DNA from: Escherichia phage tunzivis
Sequence record: MN850604.1
DNA length: 50,596 nucleotides
Reading direction: 5' to 3' (one strand)
Part shown: piece by piece, positions 3,198 through 50,037 of the stretch
How the letters are laid out: each line of letters starts with the position of its first letter
Position numbering within the stretch: the first letter of the stretch is position 1
Position numbers and translations under genes: made by a program
The notes under the pieces: model-generated
What the model was told of the DNA's origin: nothing
Database searches by the model: none
Seen by the model: only the letters and a program-made list of their open reading frames with translations

Positions 3198-4774
3198 CCC
3201 AGCAGTATTGGATTGACAAAAATAACACCATTAATCACACAAACATAATTTCTTTCTTCCAGCATTGGCAGTAAGTGCCCTTCTATCCTTTTCATTACGC
3301 CAGCCTGACCAACGAAAGGTTTTACCTTTCTCGCTGATTCGTACAGGGCGCGGATATTCAGAATCCCTTTATTAGCCTTGCCGTGCCTCGTGATCAATTC
3401 AATCAATTTACCCATTTCAGCATCATCACCAGCATAACCAGAAGCATTGGCGGCGCTAATGTATGTTTTGCTCAATTCCTGAAACATGATCAACGCCTCT
3501 TGCATTGTTTCCACGTCGATCTCTTTCGACTTCTGCGGGTATCCGGCAGGATTAAACCAGTTACGGATAACATGCAGGACGGAAGCAAGCCTGATCACCT
3601 GTTTATCCATTTTACCCAGCGCACCGCGTAACATTGTATGAGAATACTTTCCTCCGTCTGCAAGATGCGGTTCCATATCCTGGCGAGCAATGTTGAGCAC
3701 TCGCATAGCTGAACGGCTTATTTTCAGCGATATATTTGATTCGCTCATGATGTTATGCACCAATTGATAATATTGGGCTTTCAATTCAGAATCCACCGCC
3801 TCATAGGTAGAATCACCATTTTCATCAATGAATGAGCGACGGCCTAAGAATGATTCCTCTCGGACCAACAAAAAACGCTCACTAACACCGATGCCTCGCG
3901 ATCCAGCGTCCATGATTCCGCTTATCGTTTCATCCTGGGCTATGACGCTCATACATCCAAGCGCGCGAAAACTCATATTATTGTCAGCATTAGCACGGGC
4001 AATTGATACGTGACCATTATCCCACGCCTTAAGCACTAACTCACTGTTAGTCTTCCTTTCGCTATTTGCATAGGTCAAGCCTAACAGACTGTTAATACTT
4101 GTTGCTTCATCAGATATTACGGCAAAGTTACCTTGCTTGTTGTTGATTTTCGCCAAGCCTTCTGGAGTTGTATCTGAAACAGGAAAAGTTATATCACACA
4201 TTTTTTCCAGCTTTTCCTCCAGATCCTCTTTTTCCTGGTATAGAGATTCCATATCAGCGCCGGATCTTTCGCTTTTCATCTCCTTTGCAAGACCTGCCAG
4301 CTTTGCCTGTATTTTCTTTCTTTCCTTGCGGCGTTGCTCGTTGATCTTCTCAACTTCCGCAATCATCGGAGCAATAGCCATGCTGTTGATCGCAGATTTA
4401 CCAGTTGACGGCGGCTGGCTTGTAACGACGTAAAGCGCAGTCGGCTGATCGGTTCCGTGATAGTCAACCGTAAAGCGTCCAAGCATAGCGGCAGAAATGC
4501 AGCCGATAAAGTGCATGTAAGCCGATGATTCAGGGAATTGAACGGATCGCGCAATGCTGCGTGATAACTTGCCGACAACATCAATATCATTACCAAGAGA
4601 AATAACGGGGTAGCGATCGTGACCGCTATTCACATCCTTTACGTCGCCCCAAAAGCTGGACGACTGGCGATAGCCGTTAGCCTGAATTGATACGCGAACT
4701 GGCGAAAGGTTCTGGCTTTCAGCCATAGCGATTATTTGTTGTGGAGTTAATTTGTTCGTTTCTAATGAAAACAT
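3194..4774 (-). CDS. P-loop NTPase, putative replication-associated helicase-like protein (DUF3987-like)
   Basis: 526 aa; Walker A-like VVTSQPPSTGKSAINS; RBS AAGGAGAAG; motif-type promoter 53 bp upstream; family assignment is from memory. Confidence 0.45.
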   Translation of the reverse strand: MFSLETNKLTPQQIIAMAESQNLSPVRVSIQANGYRQSSSFWGDVKDVNSGHDRYPVISLGNDIDVVGKLSRSIARSVQFPESSAYMHFIGCISAAMLGRFTVDYHGTDQPTALYVVTSQPPSTGKSAINSMAIAPMIAEVEKINEQRRKERKKIQAKLAGLAKEMKSERSGADMESLYQEKEDLEEKLEKMCDITFPVSDTTPEGLAKINNKQGNFAVISDEATSINSLLGLTYANSERKTNSELVLKAWDNGHVSIARANADNNMSFRALGCMSVIAQDETISGIMDAGSRGIGVSERFLLVREESFLGRRSFIDENGDSTYEAVDSELKAQYYQLVHNIMSESNISLKISRSAMRVLNIARQDMEPHLADGGKYSHTMLRGALGKMDKQVIRLASVLHVIRNWFNPAGYPQKSKEIDVETMQEALIMFQELSKTYISAANASGYAGDDAEMGKLIELITRHGKANKGILNIRALYESARKVKPFVGQAGVMKRIEGHLLPMLEERNYVCVINGVIFVNPILLG

Positions 4775-4826
4775 TCGTTAGCTTCTCCTTTGTGGGCCGT
4801 AAATTTTAACGGCCCAATACTACCCC

Positions 4827-4845
4827 GTTTTGTCAAAAAGTGCTA
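4827..4845 (-). promoter_or_regulatory. conserved motif copy (variant TAGCACTTTTTGACAAAAC), upstream of 3194..4774
   Basis: 18-nt spacer then TAAAAT inside GC hairpin GGGCCGTTAAAATTTACGGCCC. Confidence 0.5.
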
Positions 4846-5064
4846 TTTGATCCGCTCTATTGCAACCAGAAGTCGATCAGGCTGGCGGTCGCTGTAGCAT
4901 TCTCCTGTAATCCCATCCTTAAACGTAAAGTAAAGCGCCTTATGATATGAAAAACCAATCAGCCAACCTACCGCCGTTTTTTTGATGGGCCTGACTATAT
5001 CGCCAGGCTTGAAAGTCTTTGTGGTAGAATGCGTTACTTTGTAACGGTTTTCACTGTTTATCAC
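4843..5064 (-). CDS. hypothetical protein
   Basis: 73-aa ORF; GTG start overlapping stop of upstream gene (GTGA). Confidence 0.35.
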   Translation of the reverse strand: MINSENRYKVTHSTTKTFKPGDIVRPIKKTAVGWLIGFSYHKALYFTFKDGITGECYSDRQPDRLLVAIERIK

Positions 5065-5500: not shown

Positions 5501-5519
5501 CTTTTAACAAAAAGTGCTA
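5501..5519 (-). promoter_or_regulatory. conserved motif copy upstream of 5061..5447
   Basis: reverse complement of TAGCACTTTTTGTTAAAAg; hairpin GCCAGGTG..ACCTGGC; CATAAT 18 nt downstream. Confidence 0.55.
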
Positions 5520-6233
5520 TTTTGAGTTTGACTCAAAGACGGCGCGAGCAAATCCGCGCGGAGTGAGGGAGCGGATCATCTTTGTGCGCGATGACTTGCC
5601 GCCAGTTTTGGCCCAGCCTGGATTATCTTTGTCTTCCTCTTTCGGCAGGATTAAAGCGCGCGGAGGAATAACAAAGCCGTTGCCAGTCCAGAGGCACGTT
5701 TTCTTAAAATAGCGATCACGCGCCGGAATAATATCAGGGAAGTCGGGATGTTTATCATCTTCCGGCAGATAGCCAGCGTAATCGCACGGATGGAACGTAT
5801 AATCAGGCTTACGCCATAACGTTGACAACTTGCCAACCGGATTTTCGATCATGTAAGGAACACCGAAATAATCAGCTATATCAGCCGCGATTCTGCAAGT
5901 GTCGGCGGCCTCATCCTGGAACGATGGATTCTCAAGGCGTTTTTTGGCCCAATGGCGAGATCCGCTATTTGCAAGGTCGGTGCAAGGAGGGAACGCCATA
6001 ATAAAATCAGGATTGCCCCACTCATTATTGATTGCCTTAACATAAAAAGCATCATCAATCCAGACGTTAACGTATTCGATATTCTCATGCTGTATGCGCA
6101 CTGACTGGTAATCACCGTGATCGCCGCCGTCAGCATTAAAGCAAATGCACTTATAGCCATTATCAGCCCAATCTTTAACGGCTTTACCAGATCCATCAAA
6201 TAGGGAGAATATAAAACCTTTATACATCGTCAT
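5517..6233 (-). CDS. compact DNA (cytosine-5)-methyltransferase
   Basis: ORF 5517..6296; start placed at MTMYKG with GAGG RBS; C5-MTase motifs I (FSLFDGSG), IV (FPPCTDL) and VI (ENPVG) in canonical order; unusually short, no long target-recognition region. Confidence 0.6.
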   Translation of the reverse strand: MTMYKGFIFSLFDGSGKAVKDWADNGYKCICFNADGGDHGDYQSVRIQHENIEYVNVWIDDAFYVKAINNEWGNPDFIMAFPPCTDLANSGSRHWAKKRLENPSFQDEAADTCRIAADIADYFGVPYMIENPVGKLSTLWRKPDYTFHPCDYAGYLPEDDKHPDFPDIIPARDRYFKKTCLWTGNGFVIPPRALILPKEEDKDNPGWAKTGGKSSRTKMIRSLTPRGFARAVFESNSK

Positions 6234-7417: not shown

Positions 7418-7437
7418 GTTTTTAACAAAAAGTGCTA
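7418..7437 (-). promoter_or_regulatory. conserved motif copy upstream of 7166..7363
   Basis: motif then hairpin GATGCGCT..AGCGCATC containing TATAGT at 17-nt spacing. Confidence 0.55.
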
Positions 7438-7438
7438 T

Positions 7439-7702
7439 TTAGTCCAGAAATTCGATTTCACGCTCTCCAGTTAACGGATTCACAAGCCAGAATCCGAGTG
7501 GTTCGCCGTGAACACCGCCATAGAATCCAAGAGCCGTCAGATCTTCACCTTTAACGAATACCAGGTTTCCGCTACGGCTTACGTGAGACACGTTAACGAT
7601 AACCGGAAATGTGCGATCCTTAAATGCAGGCCGCAGGGCGTAACATCCGTTATTGAGCAAACGTGCTTTGCGCTTAACTGGAATAGGTGCATTAATTTTC
7701 AT
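7439..7702 (-). CDS. hypothetical protein
   Basis: 87-aa ORF; RBS AAGGAG. Confidence 0.45.
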   Translation of the reverse strand: MKINAPIPVKRKARLLNNGCYALRPAFKDRTFPVIVNVSHVSRSGNLVFVKGEDLTALGFYGGVHGEPLGFWLVNPLTGEREIEFLD

Positions 7703-7714
7703 GGTTATTACTCC

Positions 7715-7927
7715 TTATCGTAAAGATTTAAAGACGTATAGTTTATTGCGGTAACTATATATCCGCATTGTTATTTCTCGCAGCGCAATATATTCCTTCC
7801 TGTTTTCCGGCAGACTGGCGAGCAACAACAGGCAGTATTTATAAGCGCGGTCAAGATTCCTTTCCGTGCCCCTGCAATATCCCTTATTGCGCCTGGAGCG
7901 GTACAGCCATAACAATTTCTTGAACAT
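7715..7927 (-). CDS. hypothetical protein
   Basis: ORF 7715..8017; start moved to internal ATG (MFKKLLW) preceded by GGGAGGA. Confidence 0.4.
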   Translation of the reverse strand: MFKKLLWLYRSRRNKGYCRGTERNLDRAYKYCLLLLASLPENRKEYIALREITMRIYSYRNKLYVFKSLR

Positions 7928-8138: not shown

Positions 8139-8392
8139 TTTTTCTTCTCCTGCAATAAGCAAACATCATTGATAAAATCAGCACGGCCCTTAATGTTGCT
8201 GATGTGGAACGTCTTTTCAGCGTACAGGCCATCACCTTCAATCACGATCATTACGCGAGTCGGTTTATTCACGGGCGCACACGAAAAGAGTGGTCGCGCC
8301 GGAAGAAATTTAGTGGTCACATCCAGGTTGGCCCTGGCGGCCCTGCAAAACGCCTCCGCCAGATCCAAATCATTTTCGGTAATCACCGCCAT
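8126..8392 (-). CDS. hypothetical protein
   Basis: 88-aa ORF; TAATG overlap with upstream gene. Confidence 0.45.
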   Translation of the reverse strand: MAVITENDLDLAEAFCRAARANLDVTTKFLPARPLFSCAPVNKPTRVMIVIEGDGLYAEKTFHISNIKGRADFINDVCLLQEKKKCWM

Positions 8393-8723: not shown

Positions 8724-8742
8724 GTTTTAACAAAAAGTGCTA
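8724..8742 (-). promoter_or_regulatory. conserved motif copy upstream of 8392..8664
   Basis: exact 19-mer; 18-nt spacer; TACATT; CATCGAAACGAACC leader. Confidence 0.55.
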
Positions 8743-8749
8743 TTTGACG

Positions 8750-9300
8750 GTTATCGCCAGGATTGCGATCGAAATAATCAAAAGTAATCATTCGTAATCA
8801 AATCACGTCAAAATGATGATTGCCTTTGCAAATTTGATGAGAAAAGCAATCACGTTTAATCATTGGTTGCAGGGGAGATAGTGAAACCTTCCCCTCTTGC
8901 CTCACTTTTCCGCTTGGCTGTCAGCGGTTGTTGTCTTTTGTTCACCCCTGTTACCGATTTCAGGCGGCGTGTTTCCGCGCGGTTTTCCGGTGTATCGAAA
9001 ACGGAAAAAACAAAAAAAATCCTTTATAATACATTGAAAATAAAGATTATTTATTTATATATATCTATAATGTTTTCTTTTTGTTCTCACTGTTACAGTG
9101 CTTTTTGTTGGGTATGGTGTGTTTGTGTGTGGGTATATATGGATAGTTGCGCGCGCGGCGGATTGCATATGTATATATACTTTTTCCGGCGGATTGCGTT
9201 AACAGCGTGAACAGAAAAATAACAGCCCTGAAATCAATAACTTGCGCATGATTTTGTAGTTTTTCGATATTGGTAACGTTTTGAATACAACAAAAACATT
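8750..9300. repeat. AT-rich divergent control region with short direct repeats (TAATCA-type), TA/TG-rich tracts and a motif-like AGTGCTTTTTGTT
   Basis: TAATCA/AATCAC repeats 8775..8870; GGTTTTCCGGTGTATCGAAAAC 8981..9002; TTATTTATTTATATATATCTATAAT 9047..9071; GTGTGTTTGTGTGTGGGTATATATGG 9118..9143. Confidence 0.5.
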
Positions 9301-9326
9301 GACACGCACAAAATAGCTTTTATAAT
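9299..9326 (+). promoter_or_regulatory. consensus sigma70 promoter (TTGACA-16 nt-TATAAT), candidate early promoter
   Basis: TTGACA at 9299..9304, TATAAT at 9321..9326; 32 bp upstream of first rightward gene. Confidence 0.65.
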
Positions 9327-9822: not shown

Positions 9823-10091
9823 AAAAGGCATTAATCAGCGTTTTGGCGGCAATGGCATTCCTGACCGGATGCAAAGAAGATGGCGCGCATGTTGGCAATG
9901 TGCAGATGGCTAACCCTGGCGATGACTACAGCGTAAGGGAGCTATTCACCGCTGACGGTTGCACCGTTTACCGATTCTATGACGATCGCACTGTTTACTT
10001 CACCAACTGCAAGGGCACTACTAGCTGGGAAGTGTCGAAAAGCAATGGCAAAGGCACGAAGACAGAACATATGACCGTCGAGACAAAATAG
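9819..10091 (+). CDS. lipoprotein (candidate superinfection-exclusion protein)
   Basis: ORF 9759..10091; ATG at 9819; signal peptide with lipobox LTGC; about 70 mature residues with two further Cys; stop TAG is part of the downstream motif. Confidence 0.5.
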   Translation: MKKALISVLAAMAFLTGCKEDGAHVGNVQMANPGDDYSVRELFTADGCTVYRFYDDRTVYFTNCKGTTSWEVSKSNGKGTKTEHMTVETK

Positions 10092-10107
10092 CACTTTTTG
10101 TTAAAAC
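10089..10107 (+). promoter_or_regulatory. conserved motif copy upstream of 10164..10349
   Basis: exact TAGCACTTTTTGTTAAAAC; hairpin GCCAGGTGCAAAGCCTGGC; CATAAT 10126..10131; leader CATCGAAACGAG. Confidence 0.6.
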
Positions 10108-10550: not shown

Positions 10551-10551
10551 A

Positions 10552-10570
10552 TAGCACTTTTTGTTAAAAC
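10552..10570 (+). promoter_or_regulatory. conserved motif copy upstream of 10649..11542
   Basis: exact 19-mer; CATAAT 10589..10594 (18-nt spacer). Confidence 0.55.
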
Positions 10571-11618: not shown

Positions 11619-11771
11619 ATGGCTACCTGGATTTTACTGATTCTTATGATTGATGGCGGCGTTGACCATATCGAAATGAATAGCCAGCAATCTTGCATTG
11701 AGGCACGAGAGCAGATCAAGAACAACAACGGGTTTTATGCGTACACTCACACGCTATGTATTAAGAAATAG
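11619..11771 (+). CDS. small hydrophobic protein, paralog of 12777..12938 (<60 aa, not in track)
   Basis: Manual read MATWILLILMIDGG...CIEAREQIKNNNGFYAYTHTLCIKK; RBS GAGGTGAGAG; stop TAG is the first triplet of the motif at 11769. Confidence 0.4.
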   Translation: MATWILLILMIDGGVDHIEMNSQQSCIEAREQIKNNNGFYAYTHTLCIKK

Positions 11772-11787
11772 CACTTTTTGTTAAAAC
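11769..11787 (+). promoter_or_regulatory. conserved motif copy upstream of 11841..12062
   Basis: exact 19-mer; TATAAT 11805..11810 embedded in GGCCA..TGGCC hairpin. Confidence 0.55.
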
Positions 11788-12780: not shown

Positions 12781-12938
12781 CTTGGTTGCTTTTAATCTTT
12801 GTCACAAGTTACAACTCCGCAGCTATTGAGTCGCAGGAGTTCCACGGCGAATCAAGATGCCAGGAAGCGCGAAAGCAAGTTATTCTCCACATGTCAGATA
12901 GTGGGAAGGATGTAACAGCGTTATGCGTTCGTAAATAG
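12777..12938 (+). CDS. small hydrophobic protein, paralog of 11619..11771 (<60 aa, not in track)
   Basis: Manual read MTWLLLIFVTSYNSAAIESQEFHGESRCQEARKQVILHMSDSGKDVTALCVRK; ATGA overlap with phosphatase stop; stop TAG is the first triplet of the motif at 12936. Confidence 0.4.
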   Translation: MTWLLLIFVTSYNSAAIESQEFHGESRCQEARKQVILHMSDSGKDVTALCVRK

Positions 12939-12955
12939 CACTTTTTGCAAAAAAC
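12936..12955 (+). promoter_or_regulatory. conserved motif copy (variant TAGCACTTTTTGCAAAAAAC) upstream of 13011..13274
   Basis: 18-nt spacer then TATAGT 12974..12979 inside GGGCTT..AAGCCC hairpin. Confidence 0.5.
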
Positions 12956-13667: not shown

Positions 13668-14258
13668 ATGAAACGAGACATTATCATTCTTAATGGGCCG
13701 CCAGGTTGCGGGAAGGACACTATTGCAGCTTACCTAACGGGCCATCGTTACCCAGCGGTTAAGGCGTCATTCAAACAGCCGATGTTCGATATTGCGTTTT
13801 CCATGCTTGGCCCGACTCGATATGATGAGTTTATTGACCTGTACAACGACCGAGAGCAAAAAGAAAAGCCTCAAGTTATCTTAGGCGGCAAGTCACCTCG
13901 ACAATTCATGATCTGGATTAGCGAGGATGTAATGAAGCCAGTCTTTGGGGATCACTATTTCGGGCGTCGCATGGTTGAAGAGATTCACGAGATGTACCGA
14001 GATTTAGCGGTTGTGATCAGTGATGGGGGATTCCCCGAAGAAGTCAAGCCGCTTGTTAAGGCAGGGCATGAGGTGCATATTTGCCGATTGCATCGCGACG
14101 GCTTCACGTTTGCTGGCGATTCGAGAGACTACATTGACCTGAGCGGTTATCACTATCGAATCCATCACTATGACTTCCACTTGCAGGACGGAAAGCCGGA
14201 ACTGGCTGTAAACGAGATCGTCAATGCTGTCAAATGGAAGCACACACAGATTAAATAG
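13668..14258 (+). CDS. P-loop kinase (dNMP kinase / polynucleotide kinase-like)
   Basis: 196 aa; Walker A LNGPPGCGKDT at N-terminus, as in phage nucleotide kinases. Confidence 0.55.
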   Translation: MKRDIIILNGPPGCGKDTIAAYLTGHRYPAVKASFKQPMFDIAFSMLGPTRYDEFIDLYNDREQKEKPQVILGGKSPRQFMIWISEDVMKPVFGDHYFGRRMVEEIHEMYRDLAVVISDGGFPEEVKPLVKAGHEVHICRLHRDGFTFAGDSRDYIDLSGYHYRIHHYDFHLQDGKPELAVNEIVNAVKWKHTQIK

Positions 14259-14273
14259 CACGAATTGCTAAAC
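14256..14273 (+). promoter_or_regulatory. conserved motif copy (variant TAGCACGAATTGCTAAAC) upstream of 14329..14730
   Basis: TATAAT at 14293..14298, 37 bp from TAGCAC; GC hairpin between. Confidence 0.5.
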
Positions 14274-15279: not shown

Positions 15280-15570
15280 ATGGCAAACAAAACTTACCGC
15301 AAACTACTTGTTAACGCTTTTGAAAACATCGCGCAGTGTAACAAGTGGAACGACTCTAAACACTCGCCAATCACAATGAAGCGCGCCGGATTCAAAAATG
15401 CTCGTTCATGGGCGCGAGCTTTCGCAGCTTGCTATATGCCGGATGGCGGACTAGGGGTGATGAACGATTTTTTGATCAACATGATAGAGGAAGCGGCGCG
15501 AGAGGATCGACCGCTGACACAGCGAGATTTTGACGGCTTCGCGCGCGATGAGCTTTACTATCTGAGCTAA
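15280..15570 (+). CDS. hypothetical protein
   Basis: 96-aa ORF; RBS AAGGGGA. Confidence 0.45.
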   Translation: MANKTYRKLLVNAFENIAQCNKWNDSKHSPITMKRAGFKNARSWARAFAACYMPDGGLGVMNDFLINMIEEAAREDRPLTQRDFDGFARDELYYLS

Positions 15571-15589
15571 TAGCACTTTTTGTTAAAAC
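15571..15589 (+). promoter_or_regulatory. conserved motif copy upstream of 15646..15858
   Basis: exact 19-mer; hairpin AAGGGCA..TGCCCTT; TAAAGT at +37. Confidence 0.5.
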
Positions 15590-16499: not shown

Positions 16500-16628
16500 A
16501 TGGATGAGTACAAACAACCCTCGCAATGGTGCAAAGAGAAGCAGGAGGAAGCACTTGAGCGCGGAGATGTAGAAGAAGCTATGAACTATTTCAAACTTGC
16601 GGAAGAATGGAAGGGGAGAGGATACTGA
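16500..16628 (+). CDS. small protein (<60 aa, not in track)
   Basis: Manual read MDEYKQPSQWCKEKQEEALERGDVEEAMNYFKLAEEWKGRGY; RBS AAGGTGA; stop overlaps next start (TGATG). Confidence 0.3.
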   Translation: MDEYKQPSQWCKEKQEEALERGDVEEAMNYFKLAEEWKGRGY

Positions 16629-16858
16629 TGTTCGGCATGAACGAGGCGCAATTCAACGCAGCTAAACGCCAGGCTAAAAAGTGCGGCGAGGCAATGAAAG
16701 CGGATGTGGAAAAGCGCGGGAAGTATGTTGATGAAGTAATGAAGGGCATCATTGCAGAACACTACCAGCCAATCGCGCCAATGTTGACGATCACTCAATT
16801 CATTTGGCTATGTGGTTACTTGCGCGGACGTTGGGGGAACGCTTTCGACAGGGAATGA
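16628..16858 (+). CDS. hypothetical protein
   Basis: ORF 16607..16858; ATG at 16628 (MFGMNEAQ). Confidence 0.4.
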   Translation: MFGMNEAQFNAAKRQAKKCGEAMKADVEKRGKYVDEVMKGIIAEHYQPIAPMLTITQFIWLCGYLRGRWGNAFDRE

Positions 16859-16887
16859 TTGACAACTCTTTCCTGATTGGTTAGCAT
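16859..16887 (+). promoter_or_regulatory. sigma70-like promoter (TTGACA-17 nt-TAGCAT)
   Basis: TTGACA 16859..16864 and TAGCAT 16882..16887; upstream of structured leader 16924..17006. Confidence 0.4.
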
Positions 16888-16923
16888 GGCGTCGTTTACA
16901 TAAGAGCGGCTTTGTCCGAACGC

Positions 16924-17006
16924 GTGACGCGATAGTCACACAACAACGGCGATATGCAGGAGGTTTTTGCAATGCAAAATAATCCGTAAGACGTATCGCC
17001 TTTTTT
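16924..17006 (+). other. structured leader: nested palindromes, 5-codon mini-ORF and terminator-like element upstream of 17021
   Basis: GTGACgcgataGTCAC 16924..16939; GGCGATA (16948..16954) pairs with TATCGCC (16994..17000) followed by TTTTTT; palindrome TTTTGCAaTGCAAAA 16965..16979; mini-ORF ATG CAA AAT AAT CCG TAA 16972..16989 with AGGAGG 8 nt upstream. Confidence 0.35.
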
Positions 17007-17020
17007 AATGGAGATCTAAA

Positions 17021-17254
17021 ATGATTAAATACAAATTAACCGTTTCTTTCCGTGATACCGTTATTCATCCTTTCTACAATAGCTTTGTTAACAGCTTTAC
17101 AGTAGAAGCGACAAGTGATCAGCTTGGCGGTGACGAAACTTGCATTTCTATCGGCAATGTTGCTTATCCGATTCACAACATTACCAGCATTAAGCGTGAG
17201 GTTGTCGCTGATGAATTACAAAGTGAAGATGACGATCCGGCGAATGGGGCGTAA
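17021..17254 (+). CDS. hypothetical protein
   Basis: 77-aa ORF; RBS ATGGAGAT; preceded by structured leader region. Confidence 0.45.
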   Translation: MIKYKLTVSFRDTVIHPFYNSFVNSFTVEATSDQLGGDETCISIGNVAYPIHNITSIKREVVADELQSEDDDPANGA

Positions 17255-17396
17255 CTGCCAATCATGCAAACAGGAATATGAATGCGTAGTTGATGCTCTT
17301 GATGAACTGGAAGCAGTAGCAAAAGCAAAAGAGCAATCGGGCGCTAATCCTGAAACACATCAATTTTCAATTAATCTTGTGAGGGCTTTACAATGA
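17229..17396 (+). CDS. hypothetical small Cys-containing protein
   Basis: ORF 17115..17396 in alternate frame; internal ATG 17229 (MTIRRMGRNCQSCKQEYEC); overlaps previous gene; uncertain. Confidence 0.3.
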   Translation: MTIRRMGRNCQSCKQEYECVVDALDELEAVAKAKEQSGANPETHQFSINLVRALQ

Positions 17397-17617
17397 TCGC
17401 ATTATCTTTCTGCATTGGTTTTATCATGGCTATCATTATCTTTTCCGTTGTCATGCGCTTTGCTTATAAGTTCGTGATTAATAAAGGTTGGTACGCTTCT
17501 GCCATCTGGAGCGAAAAACAAAAGAAATGGCTTGTACGTGGTCAATACCTGATGATCGGCAGCAAGATCCTAAATTCCATTCGAGCCAAAGATGGAAAAG
17601 TAAAATATACAGCTTAA
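17393..17617 (+). CDS. small membrane protein
   Basis: 74 aa; N-terminal TM segment; ATGA overlap; followed by strong terminator. Confidence 0.45.
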   Translation: MIALSFCIGFIMAIIIFSVVMRFAYKFVINKGWYASAIWSEKQKKWLVRGQYLMIGSKILNSIRAKDGKVKYTA

Positions 17618-17622
17618 AAATT

Positions 17623-17648
17623 ACCCGCCGCACGGCGGGTTTTTTATT
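17623..17648 (+). terminator. rho-independent terminator
   Basis: ACCCGCCG-cac-GGCGGGT then TTTTTTATT. Confidence 0.7.
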
Positions 17649-17658
17649 GCCCGTTGTT

Positions 17659-17667
17659 TGGTATAAT
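17659..17667 (+). promoter_or_regulatory. extended -10 element TGgTATAAT upstream of terminase small subunit
   Basis: TGGTATAAT directly after terminator 17623..17648; no clear -35. Confidence 0.35.
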
Positions 17668-18223: not shown

Positions 18224-19791
18224 TGATCATATGGGAAGATTTGACGGCGGCGCAAAAGCGAGCCATTAAAGAAATCAGTGAGCATTCATTCGAAAAGATG
18301 ATCAGAATCTGGTTTCAGTTATTGCAGGGGCAAAAATTCCAGAGCAACTGGCATTTTAGCTTATTGTGCAGTGAGGTAGAGAAGATCATCAATGGAGAGT
18401 CGCAGAATGTGATTTTCAACATTACGCCAGGTAGCGGTAAGACTGAGATTTTCTCGATCCACATGTCACCCTACGCGTCATTGAAAAGTCGGAAGGTGAG
18501 AAACCTTAACCTTTCGTTTAGTGATGGACTTGTCCAGCAAAACAGCAACAGGATAAAGGAGATTATCGGTTCTCCTGAGTGGCAAGAGCTATGGCCAGGA
18601 AAACTGGCAAAGGCGAGCGCAAAAGATCTCATAGTTACGGATGGCGGCAAGGTTAAATTGCAAGTTAACTCACGTTCTATTGGCGGACAGGTAACAGGTT
18701 TGCGTGGCGGCTATATGGATGATGGTTTTACTGGTATGCTGGTTCTGGACGATCCAGACAAGCCTGATGATATGCTTTCTAAGGTCAAGCGTGAGGCGAT
18801 CCACATGAGGTTAAAAAACACAGTGCGTTCTCGTCGAATGAAAGACACCACGCCAATTGTTATGGTGCAACAGCGACTACACGTTAATGATTCCACCTGG
18901 TTCATGCTTAATGGCGGGATGGGCGGTATTGAGTTTAAAGTTGTGAGCATTCCTGCGCTGGTTACGAAAGAATACCGCGAAACGCTTCCTGATTGGTTGA
19001 AGCCTGAATTTGATCGTGATGTGTTGTCAAGTAAGCCAGTGATGATAGATGGAGTTGCTCATTATTCATTTTGGCCTGCAAAGGAAAGCGCGGAGGAATT
19101 GCTTGCATTGCGCAATGCAGATCCTTACACGTTCGCCAGCCAATACCAACAACAACCCATCGCGCTTGGCGGCAACGTGTTTAAAACAGAGTGGTTCCAG
19201 TATTACGGCAGCGGCGAAAAATGCGCACTTCCTAAACCGGATCGCTTTGAATACACATTTATTACTGGAGATACAGCACAGAAGGCCGGAGAGCTTAACG
19301 ACTATTCAGTTTTTTGTTATTGGGGGATGTATAAAAATCGCGTTTACTTCATTGATGGCATTCGCGGCAAGTGGGAAGCGCCAGATCTTGAATTAAATTT
19401 TATTGCCTTCGTTAATCAGTGCTGGAAGCGCAATAAGGAGTGTGGCAGCTTGCGACGTATTCACATTGAGGATAAGGCCAGCGGCACGGGTTTGATTCAG
19501 GGGGCCAAAAAGAAGATCCCGATTGATATAAATCCCGTTCAGCGAAGCAATGACAAGGTAACGCGAGCAATGGACGCCGCGCCAGTAATGAGGGCAGGAC
19601 GTGTGGCACTGCCAGAAAGTCATCCCATGTTACCTGAGATACTGGCAGAGGTTGCAGCGTTCACTTTTGACGATTCTCATCCCCATGATGATATTGTCGA
19701 TAATATAGTTGATGCTGTTAACGTCGAAATGAACTTGGCAGATGATCCGGTAGCAAGGATGAAAAAGCTGGCTGGTCTACGCAATAAATAG
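18223..19791 (+). CDS. terminase large subunit
   Basis: 522 aa; P-loop-like TPGSGKTE in N-terminal ATPase half, acidic residues in C-terminal nuclease half; position TerS-TerL-portal. Confidence 0.8.
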   Translation: MIIWEDLTAAQKRAIKEISEHSFEKMIRIWFQLLQGQKFQSNWHFSLLCSEVEKIINGESQNVIFNITPGSGKTEIFSIHMSPYASLKSRKVRNLNLSFSDGLVQQNSNRIKEIIGSPEWQELWPGKLAKASAKDLIVTDGGKVKLQVNSRSIGGQVTGLRGGYMDDGFTGMLVLDDPDKPDDMLSKVKREAIHMRLKNTVRSRRMKDTTPIVMVQQRLHVNDSTWFMLNGGMGGIEFKVVSIPALVTKEYRETLPDWLKPEFDRDVLSSKPVMIDGVAHYSFWPAKESAEELLALRNADPYTFASQYQQQPIALGGNVFKTEWFQYYGSGEKCALPKPDRFEYTFITGDTAQKAGELNDYSVFCYWGMYKNRVYFIDGIRGKWEAPDLELNFIAFVNQCWKRNKECGSLRRIHIEDKASGTGLIQGAKKKIPIDINPVQRSNDKVTRAMDAAPVMRAGRVALPESHPMLPEILAEVAAFTFDDSHPHDDIVDNIVDAVNVEMNLADDPVARMKKLAGLRNK

Positions 19792-19808
19792 CACTAATTG
19801 CTAAAAAG
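19789..19808 (+). promoter_or_regulatory. conserved motif copy (variant TAGCACTAATTGCTAAAAAG) with adjacent TATAAT, between terminase and portal
   Basis: variant motif followed 4 nt later by TATAAT (19812..19817) and then a terminator hairpin; atypical spacing. Confidence 0.4.
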
Positions 19809-44878: not shown

Positions 44879-44896
44879 TTGTAAAATCCTCCTAAA

Positions 44897-44913
44897 TAGC
44901 ACTTTTTGCTAAT
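44897..44913 (+). promoter_or_regulatory. near-palindromic conserved motif copy abutting RBS of tail fibre gene
   Basis: TAGCACTTTTTGCTAAT; read on the gene strand gives ATTAGCAAAAAGTGCTATTTAGGAGG...ATG. Confidence 0.45.
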
Positions 44914-44943
44914 GACAATGCAGATAATAGCATTTTCAAGTGC

Positions 44944-44968
44944 AAAAAAAAACCCCGCATAAGCGGGG
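44944..44968 (-). terminator. rho-independent terminator after primase gene (leftward)
   Basis: on minus strand CCCCGC-ttat-GCGGGG followed by 9 T. Confidence 0.6.
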
Positions 44969-44984
44969 CAATACTAGCGGAGTT

Positions 44985-45914
44985 TTATAGCAGTGATTCA
45001 GGCTTGTAGAGTTTTCTTTCTACGCCCTGTTTAAAATTATCGTTAACAGGCATCATTATGTCAAGCCCTCTTTCCTCTGCCGCGATTATCACATCACGAT
45101 CATCTTTCCGGCAGACTACGCGCATTCTTCTTTCTCCTTTATATCTATGCGCAACCATTTCAAGATTTGAAGGAGTAAAACAGGCCCACACCTCTTGACC
45201 AGTTGATAAATGAACATGCTGAGAATCAACCCAATCAAGGCACAAATAGATCGTCTTATCTGTACTACCTGTTTTAACAACAGATCCGCGCGTGTAGTCG
45301 CGAGCTAAAAACCAATCCTTTCCATCCTCATCAATGAAAAGCACGTTACACATTTCATCATCCAGCCCGTCATCATGCACCAGGTGACAAGGTAGCGCGT
45401 GAATGTATCGACCATCCTTGACTCCGCAATCATAATGACAATCTTCCGGCGGATATATCCCCTCATAAACGCTTAAAGGTGTGCGATCGAATTTTAATGT
45501 TTTTTCCATCACTTTTTCGCAACATTCATGACTTGCCTGTTTCCCGAACGAGTAACCAGAAGAACGCGAAGCGCGTTTGTTTGCTCTGATCCTGTAATCT
45601 TGTGGCACTTTTCCGAGGAAGCGGCCCAAAATGTTGATGGCCTCGCTGTAAGGTTCGCCAGTTAATTTCATTAACCAACCGATCCCCGTGTCGTTGCCGC
45701 ATACGTTGCAGATCGCGCCGCCGTCGCCCTCTTCATTTAGCTTATCAGTCCACCTAAAACGATCCTTACCGCCGCAGTGTGGGCAAGGCTGATGCTTTTT
45801 GTTGAAAACATCGCTATGCAGTCCGCAAATGCTTTGTAGTGCTTCACGCCATAACCCCTTCATATATGGCAAAACATCTTCTTTCTGATAGGTCATAAAG
45901 CTTTCAGTATTCAT
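44985..45914 (-). CDS. DNA primase (zinc-ribbon type)
   Basis: ORF 44985..45992; ATG 45914 after GAGG; primase zinc ribbon CPHCGGKDRFRW...CNVCG; adjacent to helicase gene. Confidence 0.6.
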   Translation of the reverse strand: MNTESFMTYQKEDVLPYMKGLWREALQSICGLHSDVFNKKHQPCPHCGGKDRFRWTDKLNEEGDGGAICNVCGNDTGIGWLMKLTGEPYSEAINILGRFLGKVPQDYRIRANKRASRSSGYSFGKQASHECCEKVMEKTLKFDRTPLSVYEGIYPPEDCHYDCGVKDGRYIHALPCHLVHDDGLDDEMCNVLFIDEDGKDWFLARDYTRGSVVKTGSTDKTIYLCLDWVDSQHVHLSTGQEVWACFTPSNLEMVAHRYKGERRMRVVCRKDDRDVIIAAEERGLDIMMPVNDNFKQGVERKLYKPESLL

Positions 45915-45969
45915 GGCAAACCTCAATAAAAAAGCCCAGCAAATATTATCATTTCGCTGAGCCTTATCA

Positions 45970-46446
45970 TTAGCTATTTGTGCTGTTATCACCTTTGTAG
46001 AATCGTCCGCCTGGTTCGTAGTCTGAATTTTTGACTACGCGCAACATCTCGTATTTGTCGCAACGGGTAGTAAGAGGCTTACCGTTAGAATCAAACCGCA
46101 GATCTGGACGACAAAATGATGCGCGGTATCCTTTGCATCCATTATATTTGTAGTCGTTATGCACCTTTTGTGCTCCAGCGGCTGAAATCATACCACGCTT
46201 TCGCCATTGGTTAACGACTTGCTGAGATACGCGTAGACGTCGAGCCATAGCAGGAACACCGCCATAATACTCGATCAGAATATCCAGGCGAGATTTCAGG
46301 CTTGCTTTTACCTCATCTCGCAGGATAAGAAATCCGGTTCGGTGTTTTCGTGGCTTTTTGTCTTTACCTCGTCGCGTTCCGTTGTTACCGTTAATAGTGC
46401 GCTTGTCGATCTCACCCGTAGAAACTGCAATTCGTGCATCTTTCAT
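45970..46446 (-). CDS. HTH DNA-binding protein (candidate transcription regulator)
   Basis: 158 aa; helix-turn-helix-like GGVPAMARRLRVSQQVVNQWRKRG; RBS AGGTGA abuts an inverted copy of the conserved motif. Confidence 0.5.
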   Translation of the reverse strand: MKDARIAVSTGEIDKRTINGNNGTRRGKDKKPRKHRTGFLILRDEVKASLKSRLDILIEYYGGVPAMARRLRVSQQVVNQWRKRGMISAAGAQKVHNDYKYNGCKGYRASFCRPDLRFDSNGKPLTTRCDKYEMLRVVKNSDYEPGGRFYKGDNSTNS

Positions 46447-46458
46447 CTAGTCACCTCA

Positions 46459-46477
46459 TAGCATTTTTTGTTAAAAC
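46459..46477 (+). promoter_or_regulatory. conserved motif copy (TAGCATTTTTTGTTAAAAC) in divergent region between HTH gene and helicase
   Basis: forward for helicase (TATTAT at +37); on the other strand it directly abuts the RBS of the HTH gene. Confidence 0.55.
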
Positions 46478-46533
46478 AGTTTATTGTAATGAGTCTATTA
46501 TATACTCCAAATGGCATTTTTTAAAGGTTTAAG

Positions 46534-48531
46534 ATGATTCCAAATATCGAAAAACAAATATCAGCGTTAGGCGAGGCAGTAATAAAAAGCATCCAAGAGC
46601 GATTCACGGTTGGCAATATAGTGCCTTATCCTTATCAGTGCGTTGCGTATGCAGAGATCGCAAAGCGCATGAAAAACTATGAGCATCCTTTCTTTGTTAA
46701 GGCTTCTGTATCGGCTGGCAAAACATTGATGTTTGCGATGGTTGCGGCGCAATGCCGCAAAATGGGATTGAAAATGATGGTCCTTGCTCGCCAGGCTGAA
46801 ATTGTTGATCAGGATTCGGAAGAGATCAGCAATCTTGGCGTGCCAAACTCAATCTATTGCGCAGGACTGAAAACAAAAAGCGCATACTTTCCGATCGTAG
46901 TCGGTTCTGAGGGCACTGTAGTAAACGGATTGTTTAAGTCGTTAGGTGATTATGTTCCGCACGTTATCGGTATTGATGAATGTCACCAGGTGGATTGGGA
47001 GGATCTCGCGGACGCGATAGAAAATAATGAATCTTACCAGCAGATGACCACTAAGAAGGATTTGCCTGTACTGATTGGAGAAGAACAGCAATTTGATTCC
47101 AATGGCGATCCAATGTTCGGAACAGGGCGCACACAGTACACCGTAATAATCATGGAAATGATGCGTAGGTGTCGCGAGGCATACGGGCACGAATTGCGAA
47201 TATTCGGCATGACTGGATCTGAGTTTCGCGGCGTGGTTCCAATACTGGTTGAAGATAAGAACAAAAAGGGATTCTGGCGTGAGCAGGTGACTAACATAGA
47301 CACAAACTACTTAATCAAATTCGGTTCGGTAGTGCCAACAAACTTCGGCGACGTAGGCGACCTGGGTTATGACCTTTCAGAGTTCGAAGCCAGTAGCGAG
47401 GATGGCGTTTCAGACTTTGACGCTAAAACATTGCGCAAGATGGAAGAAAAGATCCATCAAGACGCAACAATGACACAGAAAATCATGGCTAAAGTCCATG
47501 AGATATGCAAAGACAGGAACGGAGTTTTAGTTACATGCGCAGGGGAAAGGCACTGCAAGGAGGCTGCCGCCGCACTGCCGCCAGGCGTTGAATACAGGAT
47601 CATAACTGGCAAGACTGGAGATAATCAGCGTAAAGAGTGGCTGAGGGAGGCATACGAGGGAAAAGTAAAATACATCTTCCAGGTACAGGCGCTTACCACT
47701 GGCGTTAACGTTCCGTTTTGGGATACTTCTGTAATACTGAGAAAGATAGGATCTCTAACATTGCTTATCCAGCTTTTGGGGCGCGGCATGCGACTGCTTA
47801 AGCAATGGCACATTGAGCAGGGATTCAAGAAAAAAGATCATCTTGTATTGGATTTTGCAGGTACTATGGATGAGTTAGGTGATTTGTATTTCGATCCAAT
47901 CCTTGAGCAAGCGCAATTCCAAAAGAGATTTACAAACGGGAAAGAGCCTAAGACTTGTCCGATATGTGGAACGCTAAACAGCTTTTACGCTCGCCGATGT
48001 ATGCACGTAGACGATAACGGGAAGCGATGTGAGCATTTTTGGACTTACAGAATTTGCGAGGACCAGGTAGATCCGAGAACGAAAAAGATAATCAAGCGCG
48101 GTTGTGGAACAAAAAACGACGTAGTGGCGAGAGTATGCCGTTGTTGCGATATTTCTCTTGTCGATCCTAACGAGAAGTTAAGCGGTAAGCACTACACCAA
48201 AAACGATTGGTGCAACGTTAAATCTTTCCGCGTTGATATGACGAAAAACCAGAAAGGAATTATTTTTTGCTATGAGCTTGAGGCCAACGGCGACACGTTC
48301 AAGGCATACGAAAGATTTTTCCCTGAGTCAGAAAGCAACATTTGCCGGACGATATGGAGAAAAATAGCATTGCAGCACATACCGGATCGCAAGATTGCTG
48401 GTATGGTGGCGAGCTATAGAAATGCTCGTAAAATAATGTCATACGCTCATCACATCATGCCGCCTGTACGCGTAACGCATCGCAAAAACGGCAAAGGTGA
48501 GGATAACATTGCAAAACGGGAGTTTGTTTAA
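46534..48531 (+). CDS. superfamily-2 DNA helicase with C-terminal zinc ribbons
   Basis: 665 aa; Walker A SVSAGKT, DExH box GIDECHQ; C-terminal CPICG...CRCC clusters; motif-type promoter upstream. Confidence 0.75.
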   Translation: MIPNIEKQISALGEAVIKSIQERFTVGNIVPYPYQCVAYAEIAKRMKNYEHPFFVKASVSAGKTLMFAMVAAQCRKMGLKMMVLARQAEIVDQDSEEISNLGVPNSIYCAGLKTKSAYFPIVVGSEGTVVNGLFKSLGDYVPHVIGIDECHQVDWEDLADAIENNESYQQMTTKKDLPVLIGEEQQFDSNGDPMFGTGRTQYTVIIMEMMRRCREAYGHELRIFGMTGSEFRGVVPILVEDKNKKGFWREQVTNIDTNYLIKFGSVVPTNFGDVGDLGYDLSEFEASSEDGVSDFDAKTLRKMEEKIHQDATMTQKIMAKVHEICKDRNGVLVTCAGERHCKEAAAALPPGVEYRIITGKTGDNQRKEWLREAYEGKVKYIFQVQALTTGVNVPFWDTSVILRKIGSLTLLIQLLGRGMRLLKQWHIEQGFKKKDHLVLDFAGTMDELGDLYFDPILEQAQFQKRFTNGKEPKTCPICGTLNSFYARRCMHVDDNGKRCEHFWTYRICEDQVDPRTKKIIKRGCGTKNDVVARVCRCCDISLVDPNEKLSGKHYTKNDWCNVKSFRVDMTKNQKGIIFCYELEANGDTFKAYERFFPESESNICRTIWRKIALQHIPDRKIAGMVASYRNARKIMSYAHHIMPPVRVTHRKNGKGEDNIAKREFV

Positions 48532-48950: not shown

Positions 48951-48966
48951 CACTTTTTGTTAAAAC
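48948..48966 (+). promoter_or_regulatory. conserved motif copy upstream of dam
   Basis: exact 19-mer; hairpin TGGCGCgatggattGCGCCA; CATAAT 48985..48990. Confidence 0.55.
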
Positions 48967-49024
48967 TGGCGCGATGGATTGCGCCATAATTCAATAACAC
49001 GAGATGGCTTTTAATAGCGGAGAA

Positions 49025-49756: not shown

Positions 49757-49760
49757 CACG

Positions 49761-50018: not shown

Positions 50019-50037
50019 TAGCACTTTTTGTTAAAAC
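50019..50037 (+). promoter_or_regulatory. conserved motif copy upstream of 50088..50273
   Basis: exact 19-mer; hairpin GCCCGGCATTTTGTCGGGC; CATAAT 50056..50061; leader CATCGAAACGAACG. Confidence 0.6.

What the first reader, a model, noticed from the sequence alone, without database searches (positions are those of the whole stretch)
16859..17020. Non-coding leader with nested palindromes, a five-codon mini-ORF and a terminator-like hairpin: possible attenuator
Downstream of a TTGACA-17-TAGCAT promoter, the 160-bp leader before gene 17021 contains an inverted repeat GTGAC-gcgata-GTCAC, a perfect palindrome TTTTGCA-a-TGCAAAA, a mini-ORF (MQNNP) with a strong AGGAGG RBS, and a long-range pairing GGCGATA / TATCGCC immediately followed by TTTTTT. 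A leader peptide overlapping alternative hairpins before a T-run is the architecture of transcription attenuators; it could also be a small structured RNA or an operator.
Basis: seen in the sequence. Interest (0 to 1): 0.45.

Follow-up and report, generated by a model that had tools for sequence, protein, structure and literature searches.

The report
Conserved structured leader RNA of T1-like phages
The motifs are real, but they are not a leader-peptide attenuator: they form a previously undescribed, promoter-coupled structured non-coding RNA found once in every T1-like (Drexlerviridae) phage examined, which in this phage ends in its own transcription terminator.

Summary
The window is a T1-like coliphage (Warwickvirus, 99.8% identical to phage tonn). 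Comparison with about 40 distinct relatives shows that the TTGACA-17-TAGCAT promoter and the RNA starting at about G16894 form one conserved module. The RNA has a 13-nt 5' tail, helix H1, an AACG linker, helix H2 (the GTGAC/GTCAC repeat), and a long helix H3 (GGCGATATG/CGTATCGCC) followed by T6.

Covariation is strong. In close relatives 97.8% of cells are paired and 10 pairs show compensatory changes (0 of 500 shuffles reach this). Family-wide, 8 of 9 H1/H2 pairs covary. G.U pairs place the structure on the + strand RNA.

The core (promoter, tail, H1, H2) occurs once per genome in Tempevirinae, T1, Rtp, Vilniusvirus and Webervirus, always 2-3 small genes upstream of terS, whatever the flanking genes. 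The 3' end varies by lineage: a T-run terminator (here), a tRNA gene, or a direct RBS.

The mini-ORF is not conserved and its Shine-Dalgarno sequence is base-paired.

No match was found in Rfam, E. coli genomes, plasmids or the literature searched. The function is unknown. The most likely reading is a factor-binding leader or small RNA whose terminator gates read-through into genes 17021-17617.

The parts
16859..16887 (+). Sigma-70-type promoter: -35 TTGACA (16859-64, directly after the TGA stop of gene 16628-16858), 17-nt spacer holding the conserved CTGATTGG (16873-80), and -10 TAGCAT (16882-87)
   Evidence: Scan (10/12). TTGAC, CTGAnnGG and TAnnnT are conserved in all lineages including T1, Rtp, KP36 and TLS. 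The stretch between -10 and +1 is variable.
16894..16906 (+). Predicted +1 (G16894) and conserved single-stranded 5' tail GUUUACAUAAGAG (family consensus GUNNACNNAAGAG)
   Evidence: The conserved block starts exactly 7 nt after the -10. The start site is inferred, not mapped.
16907..16918 (+). Helix H1: 3 bp here (CGG/CCG), 4-5 bp in most relatives, with a variable loop
   Evidence: All 4 pairs show compensatory changes family-wide. Weak in this genome.
16919..16923 (+). Conserved linker AACG(N)
   Evidence: Invariant in alignment A3. KP36 has AAGUCU instead.
16924..16939 (+). Helix H2: GUGAC-GCGAUA-GUCAC, a 5-bp stem of free sequence with a conserved loop (R-C-G-...)
   Evidence: 4 of 5 pairs are compensatory and 99.2% of cells are paired. 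Pair probability 0.99.
16940..16947 (+). A/C-rich unpaired linker ACAACAAC
   Evidence: Alignment A1.
16948..17000 (+). Helix H3 (-19.7 kcal/mol): outer stem 16948-56/16992-17000, middle stem GGA/UCC 16959-61/16983-85, conserved CCGUAA motif 16984-89
   Evidence: Compensatory changes at 3 pairs and G.U pairs including the consensus U.G. Energy and pair probabilities of about 1.0. CCGUAA is conserved in nearly all lineages.
16965..16979 (+).
   Evidence: Present in 8 of 19 variants, and 4 of its 6 pairs covary. TLS and L157 have a counterpart of different sequence.
16972..16989 (+). Mini-ORF MQNNP, judged incidental
   Evidence: Start codon lost or changed in close relatives, ORF absent in most, Shine-Dalgarno sequence paired.
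17001..17006 (+). T6 run; together with H3 it forms an intrinsic-terminator signal
   Evidence: T4-T9 is kept in Warwick-, Hanriver- and Henuseptimavirus variants while the bases after it vary. Absent in T1, TLS, KP36 and Pocis76.
17010..17617 (+). RBS GGAG (17010-13) and three small genes reached only by read-through: 17021-17254, 17211-17396 (zinc-ribbon, phrog_2919), 17393-17617 (DUF7299)
   Evidence: There is no room for a promoter between the T-run and ATG 17021.
17623..17667 (+). Boundary of the unit: strong terminator (17623-40 plus a T-run), then the extended -10 promoter TGGTATAAT (17659-67) in front of terS (ATG 17696)
   Evidence: Terminator plus TGnTATAAT is conserved in all lineages.

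Best explanation
This is an autonomous module: a strong sigma-70 promoter fused to a structured non-coding RNA. It belongs to an undescribed RNA family present once in every Drexlerviridae genome examined. It always lies at the end of the rightward early gene block, 2-3 small genes upstream of the terminator and promoter that precede terS. The universal core is the promoter (with CTGAnnGG in its spacer), a 13-nt 5' tail, H1, an AACG linker and H2 with a conserved loop. Most lineages add a GC-rich hairpin carrying CCGUAA. In this phage and its close relatives that last hairpin has become a 9-bp stem followed by U6. Transcripts from P16859, and read-through from the upstream early operon, are therefore expected to stop mostly at about 17004-17006. 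That would give an RNA of about 113 nt, and only the read-through fraction would express genes 17021-17617. This is a leader terminator, but it is not ribosome-controlled. The conserved unpaired tail and loops on stems of free sequence look like a binding platform for a protein or for RNA polymerase, which would set read-through or act through the released RNA. Shown here: the motifs, the + strand RNA structure, the family distribution and synteny, and the non-conservation of the mini-ORF. Inferred: the start site, termination in vivo, and any factor binding.
For: Motifs and promoter. Structure: (compensatory changes far above the shuffled and slid controls; the consensus U.G pair fits only the + strand RNA). 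H3 is -19.7 kcal/mol with pair probabilities of about 1.0. Covariance models find exactly one copy in the window (105 and 68 bits). They also find one syntenic copy in T1 (28 / 57.5 bits), NBD2 and LF82-10 (40 / 35 bits), Rtp (26 bits), KP36 (20 bits) and TLS (50 bits), and in each of the 24 terL-anchored IMG/VR contigs that gave a hit, out of 27 searched. The module is independent of its neighbours: T1's upstream gene is unrelated (19% identity) and at least five different genes or tRNAs follow the leader. The T-run is kept in the close lineages while the flanking bases vary. H3 is the first strong + strand terminator after about 7.5 kb of early genes. The unit is closed by a conserved terminator, after which terS has its own conserved extended -10 promoter.
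Against: There is no transcript evidence of any kind; I found no RNA-seq or start-site mapping for these phages. The fold of the single sequence is not significant alone (z = -1.44). H1 is only 3 bp in this genome. H3 has an unusually large, branched 35-nt 'loop' for an intrinsic terminator, so its efficiency is uncertain. The T-run is missing in many family members, so termination cannot be the family's shared function. No binding partner was identified, and the neighbouring proteins are all of unknown function.
Confidence: 0.6

Rival explanations
1. Its main role is as a free-standing trans-acting small RNA. It would be made from its own promoter and ended by the H3/U6 terminator. It would then act on host or phage mRNAs by base pairing, or sequester a protein. 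Expression of the downstream genes would be a side effect of leakage.
For: In this lineage it has its own promoter plus a stable terminator hairpin with a U-tail, and is about 113 nt long. It has conserved unpaired segments. In NBD2, LF82-10, Rtp and L170 a tRNA follows the leader, so RNase P cleavage would release the leader as a discrete RNA (inference).
Against: T1, TLS, KP36, Pocis76 and L162-L168 have no 3'-end-forming signal between the leader and the next RBS, so there it is a 5' UTR. No antisense target is encoded opposite. There is no similarity to any host sequence. Targets were not searched systematically.
Confidence: 0.25
2. It is the loading site of a processive antitermination system, RNA-based like HK022 put or a nut/Q-like site for an unidentified phage protein. 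RNA polymerase starting at P16859 would become terminator-resistant. It would then read through H3, the terminator before terS and the many terminators inside the late operon.
For: The late operon carries at least 8 strong + strand terminators while promoter-like matches are at background level. The same is annotated in T1 and KP36. The module sits just upstream of that operon in all lineages. The promoter spacer and the initial transcribed sequence are unusually conserved, and two hairpins follow directly. A short terminated transcript from a constitutive promoter is the logic of lambda PR'-tR'.
Against: terS has its own conserved extended -10 promoter right after the boundary terminator in every lineage. 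Other extended -10 elements follow late terminators, so a single long read-through transcript is not required. There is no boxA on the RNA strand, no -10-like pause element in the initial transcript, and no Q or N homologue among the neighbours. H1 and H2 are 4-5 bp, unlike the two long put stems.
Confidence: 0.15
3. It is a ribosome-mediated (leader-peptide) transcription attenuator. Translation of MQNNP would choose between alternative hairpins and so control termination at the T-run.
For: In this genome an AGGAGG lies 8 nt before an ATG, followed by 5 codons including two Asn codons, all inside the terminator hairpin.
Against: The ORF is absent from 11 of 19 close variants. The start is ACG in SECphi27 and TTG in tonnikala. 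Changes in the 'peptide' track stem covariation. The Shine-Dalgarno sequence is paired (0.97) and the AUG lies in the apical loop. I found no conserved alternative pairing. The downstream genes are small phage proteins, not a biosynthetic operon.
Confidence: 0.03
4. The inverted repeats are DNA operators for a phage regulator, for example the conserved Cro/YdaS-like HTH protein at 45970-46446, and the RNA structure is incidental.
For: There are palindromes close to a promoter and a conserved CTGAnnGG motif inside the promoter spacer. An HTH regulator is conserved in the family.
Against: Stem sequences change freely while complementarity is kept (H2 occurs as GUGAC, GUGGC, GUAGC, GCCAG, GCGGC, GCAGC, GUGAG and GCCCC), which is the opposite of a sequence-specific operator. 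G.U pairs, including a consensus U.G, would be A.C mismatches in the DNA inverted repeat. The conserved bases lie in loops and linkers. The spacer motif could still be a protein site.
Confidence: 0.03
5. H3 plus T6 is simply the terminator of the upstream early operon, and the rest has no function of its own.
For: It is the first strong + strand terminator after about 7.5 kb of rightward early genes.
Against: This does not explain a conserved promoter placed upstream of the terminator. Nor does it explain the covarying H1 and H2 and the conserved tail in lineages that have no T-run at all. It may be true as an additional role in this lineage.
Confidence: 0.1

Closest known systems
Lambdoid late promoter PR' with its short terminated '6S' transcript at tR' (in Stx phages this transcript is the sRNA StxS); named from my own knowledge
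   Same: A strong host-type promoter is followed within about 110 nt by an intrinsic terminator. The default product is a short RNA, and downstream genes need read-through. It lies next to the packaging and structural genes.
   Different: There is no Q homologue, no recognisable -10-like pause element and no demonstrated Q-binding site. The RNA upstream of the terminator is itself conserved and covarying. The late operon has its own promoter. Many family members lack the terminator.
HK022 put RNA (RNA-only processive antitermination; PMC9378689)
   Same: A promoter-proximal nascent RNA with two hairpins in an E. coli phage, maintained by covariation, with many terminators downstream.
   Different: put is about 70 nt with two long stem-loops and a triplex in stem I, and it binds the beta' zinc-binding domain. 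Here H1 and H2 are 4-5 bp with a long unpaired 5' tail. There is no sequence similarity, and the activity is untested.
Leader-peptide attenuators of amino-acid operons (trp, his, thr, pheA)
   Same: In this one genome there is a leader, a mini-ORF and a terminator hairpin with a T-run before the first gene.
   Different: The ORF is not conserved, its Shine-Dalgarno sequence is paired, there are no alternative hairpins, and there is no biosynthetic operon.
Phage-encoded small RNAs with their own promoter and Rho-independent terminator (for example lambda OOP, DicF, StxS)
   Same: Size of about 110 nt, own promoter, terminator hairpin and U-tail in this lineage.
   Different: It is not antisense to a gene and no target is known. 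Homologues in T1, TLS and KP36 are 5' UTRs without a terminator.
T4 stable RNAs C and D ('species 1 and 2') co-transcribed with the T4 tRNA cluster; named from my own knowledge, not tested here
   Same: Structured small RNAs of unknown function in a virulent coliphage, physically linked to tRNA genes. Here, Vilniusvirus, Rtp and L170 have a tRNA directly after the leader.
   Different: Homology was not examined. In this window there is no tRNA at all.

Membership tests
Leader-peptide transcription attenuator | Short leader ORF conserved among relatives, with regulatory codons | tested here: not met
   ORF absent in 11 of 19 variants. Start codon is ACG in SECphi27 and TTG in tonnikala. MQNNP versus MQYNP tracks a stem change.
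Leader-peptide transcription attenuator | Accessible ribosome-binding site for the leader ORF | tested here: not met
   The GGA of AGGAGG is paired with probability 0.97 in the H3 middle stem, a pair that covaries (GGA/UCC versus GGU/ACC).
Leader-peptide transcription attenuator | Mutually exclusive antiterminator and terminator hairpins overlapping the ORF | tested here: not met
   The MFE, centroid and consensus folds give one structure. The candidate alternative pairing (H2 loop GCGAUA with UAUCGC) is not conserved in IsaakIselin or L155 (by inspection).
Leader-peptide transcription attenuator | Controls an amino-acid biosynthesis or related operon | tested here: not met
   The downstream genes are small phage proteins of unknown function (phrog_2919, DUF7299).
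Intrinsic (Rho-independent) terminator | GC-rich stem directly followed by a U-run | tested here: met
   A 9-bp stem (16948-56/16992-17000), -19.7 kcal/mol for the whole hairpin, then U6. The loop is atypically large (35 nt, internally structured), which is why the simple scan (loop 3-8) did not list it.
Intrinsic (Rho-independent) terminator | Termination demonstrated in vitro or in vivo | not testable with these tools
   No transcript data found.
Sigma-70 promoter | -35 and -10 hexamers at 16-18 nt spacing, conserved among relatives | tested here: met
   TTGACA-17-TAGCAT scores 10/12. TTGAC and TAnnnT are kept in all lineages, with variable sequence between -10 and +1. Activity was not measured.
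HK022 put antiterminator RNA | About 70 nt, two long stem-loops, triplex in stem I | tested here: not met
   H1 is 3-5 bp and H2 is 5 bp, with a 13-nt unpaired 5' tail, compared with the description in PMC9378689.
HK022 put antiterminator RNA | Binds the RNA polymerase beta' zinc-binding domain and suppresses downstream terminators without protein factors | not testable with these tools
   Needs in vitro transcription.
Lambda N / nut site | boxA (CGCUCUUA-like) on the RNA, followed by a boxB hairpin with a GNRA-like pentaloop | tested here: not met
   Only the reverse complement of boxA occurs (UAAGAGCG at 16901-08), and it is not kept in T1 (GACGAGGC). The H2 loop is a hexaloop GCGAUA.
Lambda Q / PR'-tR' | Q gene upstream, Q-binding element in the promoter, -10-like pause inducer in the first transcribed bases | tested here: inconclusive
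   A conserved spacer motif CTGAnnGG exists. No TAnnnT-like hexamer is conserved at +1 to +10. The upstream protein has no Pfam family and belongs to an unknown-function PHROG.
Any Rfam family (riboswitches, leaders, sRNAs, ribozymes) | Score at or near a family's gathering threshold | tested here: not met
   There are no hits at gathering cut-offs in the window. At permissive E-values nothing overlaps the leader in the window, T1, NBD2, LF82-10, Pocis76, IsaakIselin or BEK1-23. Only the genuine tRNAs score.
tRNA / tRNA-like | Cloverleaf detected by ARAGORN or the Rfam tRNA model | tested here: not met
   0 tRNAs in the window and in T1. tRNAs are found only downstream of the leader in NBD2, LF82-10, L170 and Rtp.

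The most novel reading that the evidence does not exclude
The promoter-coupled core (conserved spacer motif, 5' tail, H1, H2 loop) is a new kind of phage device that reprograms host RNA polymerase or recruits a phage factor to it at the moment of promoter escape. It would be an RNA-dependent antitermination or anti-pausing switch unrelated to put, nut or Q, and would explain how T1-type phages express a late region studded with terminators. Alternatively, the released RNA is a decoy aimed at a host factor or defence system.
Probability: 0.2. Interest if true: 0.8.

Novelty: new member of a known kind. Interest (0 to 1): 0.55.

Why it matters
T1 is one of the classical coliphages, and Drexlerviridae are among the most commonly isolated E. 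coli, Shigella and Klebsiella phages, including therapy candidates. How they time and regulate transcription is essentially unknown. A non-coding RNA with its own promoter is conserved by covariation across five subfamily- or genus-level lineages, always at the boundary between the early genes and the packaging genes. That makes it a concrete, testable handle on the question. It also corrects annotation: several Hanrivervirus records extend a CDS through this RNA, and the RefSeq Rtp record leaves 460 bp there unannotated, including a tRNA. The module could also serve as a compact promoter-leader-terminator part for phage engineering.

Tried and rejected
1. Rfam at gathering and at permissive thresholds, on the window and on six divergent relatives: nothing for the leader.
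2. tRNA-like: ARAGORN is negative for the window and for T1.
3. P16859 as the late-operon promoter, with the leader as its antitermination site. This was attractive because of the 8 late terminators. I demoted it after finding a conserved terminator plus TGnTATAAT promoter directly before terS in every lineage.
4. The TLS-type 19-nt repeats as late promoters: 20 copies, but nearly all in the early blocks and none in the leader.
5. Loop-loop contact between the H2 loop CG and CCGUAA: the CG becomes CA or UA in SECphi27, L078 and L159 with no compensating change.
6. The boxA reverse complement in the 5' tail: not conserved in T1.
7. CTGATTGG as a recurring promoter motif in the window: 60 matches with up to 1 mismatch against 40 expected, but none in another promoter context.
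8. A second copy or shared leader features at the window's other promoters: none.
9. A host or plasmid origin: no match in 5,426 E. coli genomes or in PLSDB. The 3 bacterial-genome pattern hits are chance.
10. The IMG/VR pattern scan gave 120 hits, of which only 5 are real.
11. Conserved alternative antiterminator pairing: none found by inspection.
12. Literature search for transcript maps or ncRNAs of T1-like phages: none found. The TLS paper's promoter list omits this site.

Full report
**What the window is.** The region matches T1-like coliphages. It is 99.8% identical to phages tonn and vB-Eco-KMB46 and 99.5% to swan01 over 1.3 kb (Drexlerviridae, Tempevirinae, Warwickvirus). In the annotated relative PeterMerian, the finding lies at the end of the rightward block of small early-type genes. 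Three small genes separate it from terS, terL and the structural operon.

**Checking the observation.**
- TTGACA is at 16859-64, immediately after the TGA stop of the upstream gene. A 17-nt spacer and TAGCAT (16882-87) follow. This scores 10/12, one of three such sites in the first 17 kb.
- GTGAC/GTCAC lies at 16924-39.
- The palindrome lies at 16965-79.
- AGGAGG lies at 16958-63.
- The mini-ORF spans 16972-16989.
- The long-range pairing extends to 9 bp (16948-56/16992-17000) and is followed by T6 (17001-06).
- The RBS and ATG 17021 follow.

The minimum-free-energy fold reproduces the hairpins, but it is not significant on its own (z = -1.44).

**Comparative evidence for a real RNA structure.** The leader occurs once in each of 130 phage records. 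I aligned 19 distinct variants from the predicted +1 to the T-run.
- For the structure H1, H2, H3 outer, H3 middle and inner hairpin, 97.8% of cells are paired.
- Ten pairs have changes on both sides, against 3.4 +/- 1.0 in shuffles (0/500) and 0-1 when partners are slid.
- RNAalifold finds H1, H2 and H3 by itself.
- The consensus U.G pair in H3 and further G.U pairs would be A.C mismatches on the other strand. The structure therefore belongs to the + strand RNA and not to a DNA operator.
- The bases between the -10 and +1 vary, while conservation begins exactly 7 nt after the -10. This supports a start at about G16894 (inference).

**The mini-ORF.** The inner hairpin that holds it is missing from 11 of 19 variants.
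- SECphi27 (about 96-98% identical overall) has ACG in place of the ATG, and tonnikala has TTG. Both keep the hairpin.
- The N-to-Y difference in morffagbaw and grams is one side of a compensatory stem change.
- Pocis76, L157 and TLS have an inner hairpin of different sequence and no equivalent ORF.
- In the window's RNA, the GGA of AGGAGG is paired (p = 0.97) in a covarying helix, and the AUG is formed by two loop bases plus one stem base.

Leader-peptide attenuation is therefore not supported.

**How wide the family is.** A covariance model of the whole leader (R1) and one of the core (R2) each find a single copy in the window. They also find one syntenic copy in other lineages:

| Phage or set | Lineage | Score |
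|---|---|---|
| T1 | Tunavirinae | 28 / 57.5 bits |
| NBD2 and LF82-10 | Vilniusvirus (NBD2; LF82-10 not classified in its record) | 40 / 35 bits |
| Rtp | Braunvirinae | 26 bits, inside a 460-bp unannotated gap |
| KP36 | Webervirus | 20 bits |
| TLS | Tlsvirus | 50 bits |
| terL-anchored IMG/VR contigs | various | 24 of the 27 contigs searched gave one hit each |

On a family-wide core alignment, 97.7% of H1/H2 cells are paired (68% in shuffles). Eight of nine pairs are compensatory, and 64 cells carry double changes against 23 in shuffles and at most 8 in slid controls. H2 occurs as GUGAC, GUGGC, GUAGC, GCCAG, GCGGC, GCAGC, GUGAG and GCCCC, while its loop (R-C-G...) and the flanking AACG stay constant.

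The module does not depend on its neighbours. T1's upstream gene is unrelated (19% identity), yet the stop-codon/TTGAC junction is kept. At least five different genes or tRNAs follow the leader.

Nothing similar exists in Rfam, in 5,426 E. coli genomes or PLSDB plasmids, or in bacterial genomes beyond chance matches.

**The 3' end is lineage-specific.**
- Warwick-, Hanriver- and Henuseptimaviruses have a long closing stem plus T4-T9.
- T1, TLS, Pocis76 and several metagenomic lineages have a 5-bp GC-rich hairpin with CCGUAA in its loop, followed directly by an RBS.
- KP36 has only the core.
- NBD2 and LF82-10 (tRNA-Ser GCT), and Rtp and L170 (tRNA-Arg TCT), have a tRNA after the leader.

Termination therefore cannot be the shared function. 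It is an addition in this lineage, where the T-run is kept although the bases after it differ.

**Context and mechanism.** H3/T6 is the first strong + strand terminator after about 7.5 kb of rightward early genes. There is no room for a promoter between it and ATG 17021. Genes 17021-17617, which include a zinc-ribbon protein (phrog_2919) and a DUF7299 membrane protein, can therefore be expressed only by read-through. That is a leader-terminator (attenuator-type) architecture, but one without a ribosome sensor.

I first considered that the leader might be the antitermination signal for the late operon. That operon has at least 8 strong terminators and only background promoter matches, as also annotated in T1 and KP36. 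However, in all lineages the terminator before terS is followed at once by a conserved extended -10 promoter (TGnTATAAT; window 17659-67). The leader unit is thus self-contained, and a single read-through transcript is not required. I keep antitermination as a rival at 0.15.

The known systems fail their membership tests. put needs two long stems and a triplex. nut needs a boxA on the RNA strand. For Q there is no pause element and no homologue.

**What I commit to.** This is a promoter-coupled structured non-coding RNA of a new family. In this phage it most likely yields an RNA of about 113 nt by termination at T6, and it lets a fraction of polymerases through to the three small genes. Its conserved tail and loops, set on freely varying stems, probably bind a protein or RNA polymerase. 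Whether the important product is the cis-acting leader or the released RNA cannot be decided without experiments. No transcript data for these phages were found. The TLS re-annotation lists only three promoters, none of them at this site.

**Verdict.** It is a new member of a known kind (a phage leader or small RNA) with unknown function. Interest is 0.55.

Noticed in passing
window + strand 10088-10106, 10551-10569, 11768-11786, 12935-12953, 14255-14273, 15570-15588, 19788-19806, 44896-50036; - strand 2666-2684, 4828-4846, 5502-5520, 7420-7438, 8725-8743, 24412, 28164, 38938: The 19-nt repeat ATAGCACTTTTTGTTAAAA (the TLS-type direct repeat) occurs 20 times against 2.9 expected. It is oriented with transcription and concentrated in the two divergent early gene blocks, just upstream of genes. 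Its function is unknown (PMC11447400 suggests promoters or enhancers).
   Followed up: partly
window 17623-17667 (also T1 L143 about 8322-8375 and all other lineages): A strong terminator (ACCCGCCGCACGGCGGGT plus a T-run) is followed within 20 nt by a perfect extended -10 promoter TGGTATAAT in front of terS. This terminator-then-promoter pair is conserved across all Drexlerviridae lineages examined.
   Followed up: yes
L184 (Rtp NC_007603) 4893-4969; L144 1345-1432; L145 1351-1438; L170; L143 (T1) 7689-7752: tRNA genes sit directly after the leader in some lineages. The tRNA-Arg(TCT) of Rtp is not annotated in the RefSeq record, which leaves 460 bp blank. T1 keeps the pre-tRNA domain and about 12 nt resembling the tRNA 5' end (AAGAGGATTGCA versus GGAAGGATGGCA), which now serve as the RBS of ST57. 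This suggests the tRNA was deleted.
   Followed up: partly
L005 1035-1337, L006/L007/L009 1037-1339, L010 1137-1439: Several Hanrivervirus records annotate a 303-nt CDS whose TTG start lies inside helix H2 and which runs through H3 and the T-run. The 234-nt version starting after the T-run, as annotated in other records, is far more likely. The longer CDS is probably over-extended.
   Followed up: partly
window 19819-40, 23559-80, 25458-78, 28101-19, 28830-47, 31909-30, 34044-60: The late structural operon is punctuated by strong canonical intrinsic terminators. At least one (31909) is followed by another extended -10 element (TGTTACAAT at 31939-47). How late transcription passes these terminators is unexplained.
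   Followed up: partly
window 9299-9326: A perfect consensus sigma-70 promoter (TTGACA-16-TATAAT), the only 12/12 site found in the parts of the window that were scanned (1-36999), lies on the + strand near the start of the rightward early block.
   Followed up: no
phage records MG065636, MG065640, MG065641 and about 17 others (L011, L013, L021): Twenty 'UNVERIFIED Campylobacter phage' records are T1-like Hanrivervirus genomes that carry the same leader as the coliphages. The Campylobacter host attribution looks doubtful.
   Followed up: no
window 16628-16858: The upstream gene (phrog_303, unknown function, no Pfam hit) is labelled 'ipe: inducer of pleiotropic effects' in three GenBank records (XY3, SFP17, JLBYU41). 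I did not look for a basis for that name.
   Followed up: no
L184 (Rtp) about 4700-4790: Rtp's long leader holds a second element resembling the window's H3 3' half (CUUGUAAGACCUAGCGC versus CCGUAAGACGUAUCGCC), in addition to the CCGUAA hairpin before its tRNA. This hints at a duplication or rearrangement history of the 3' domain.
   Followed up: no
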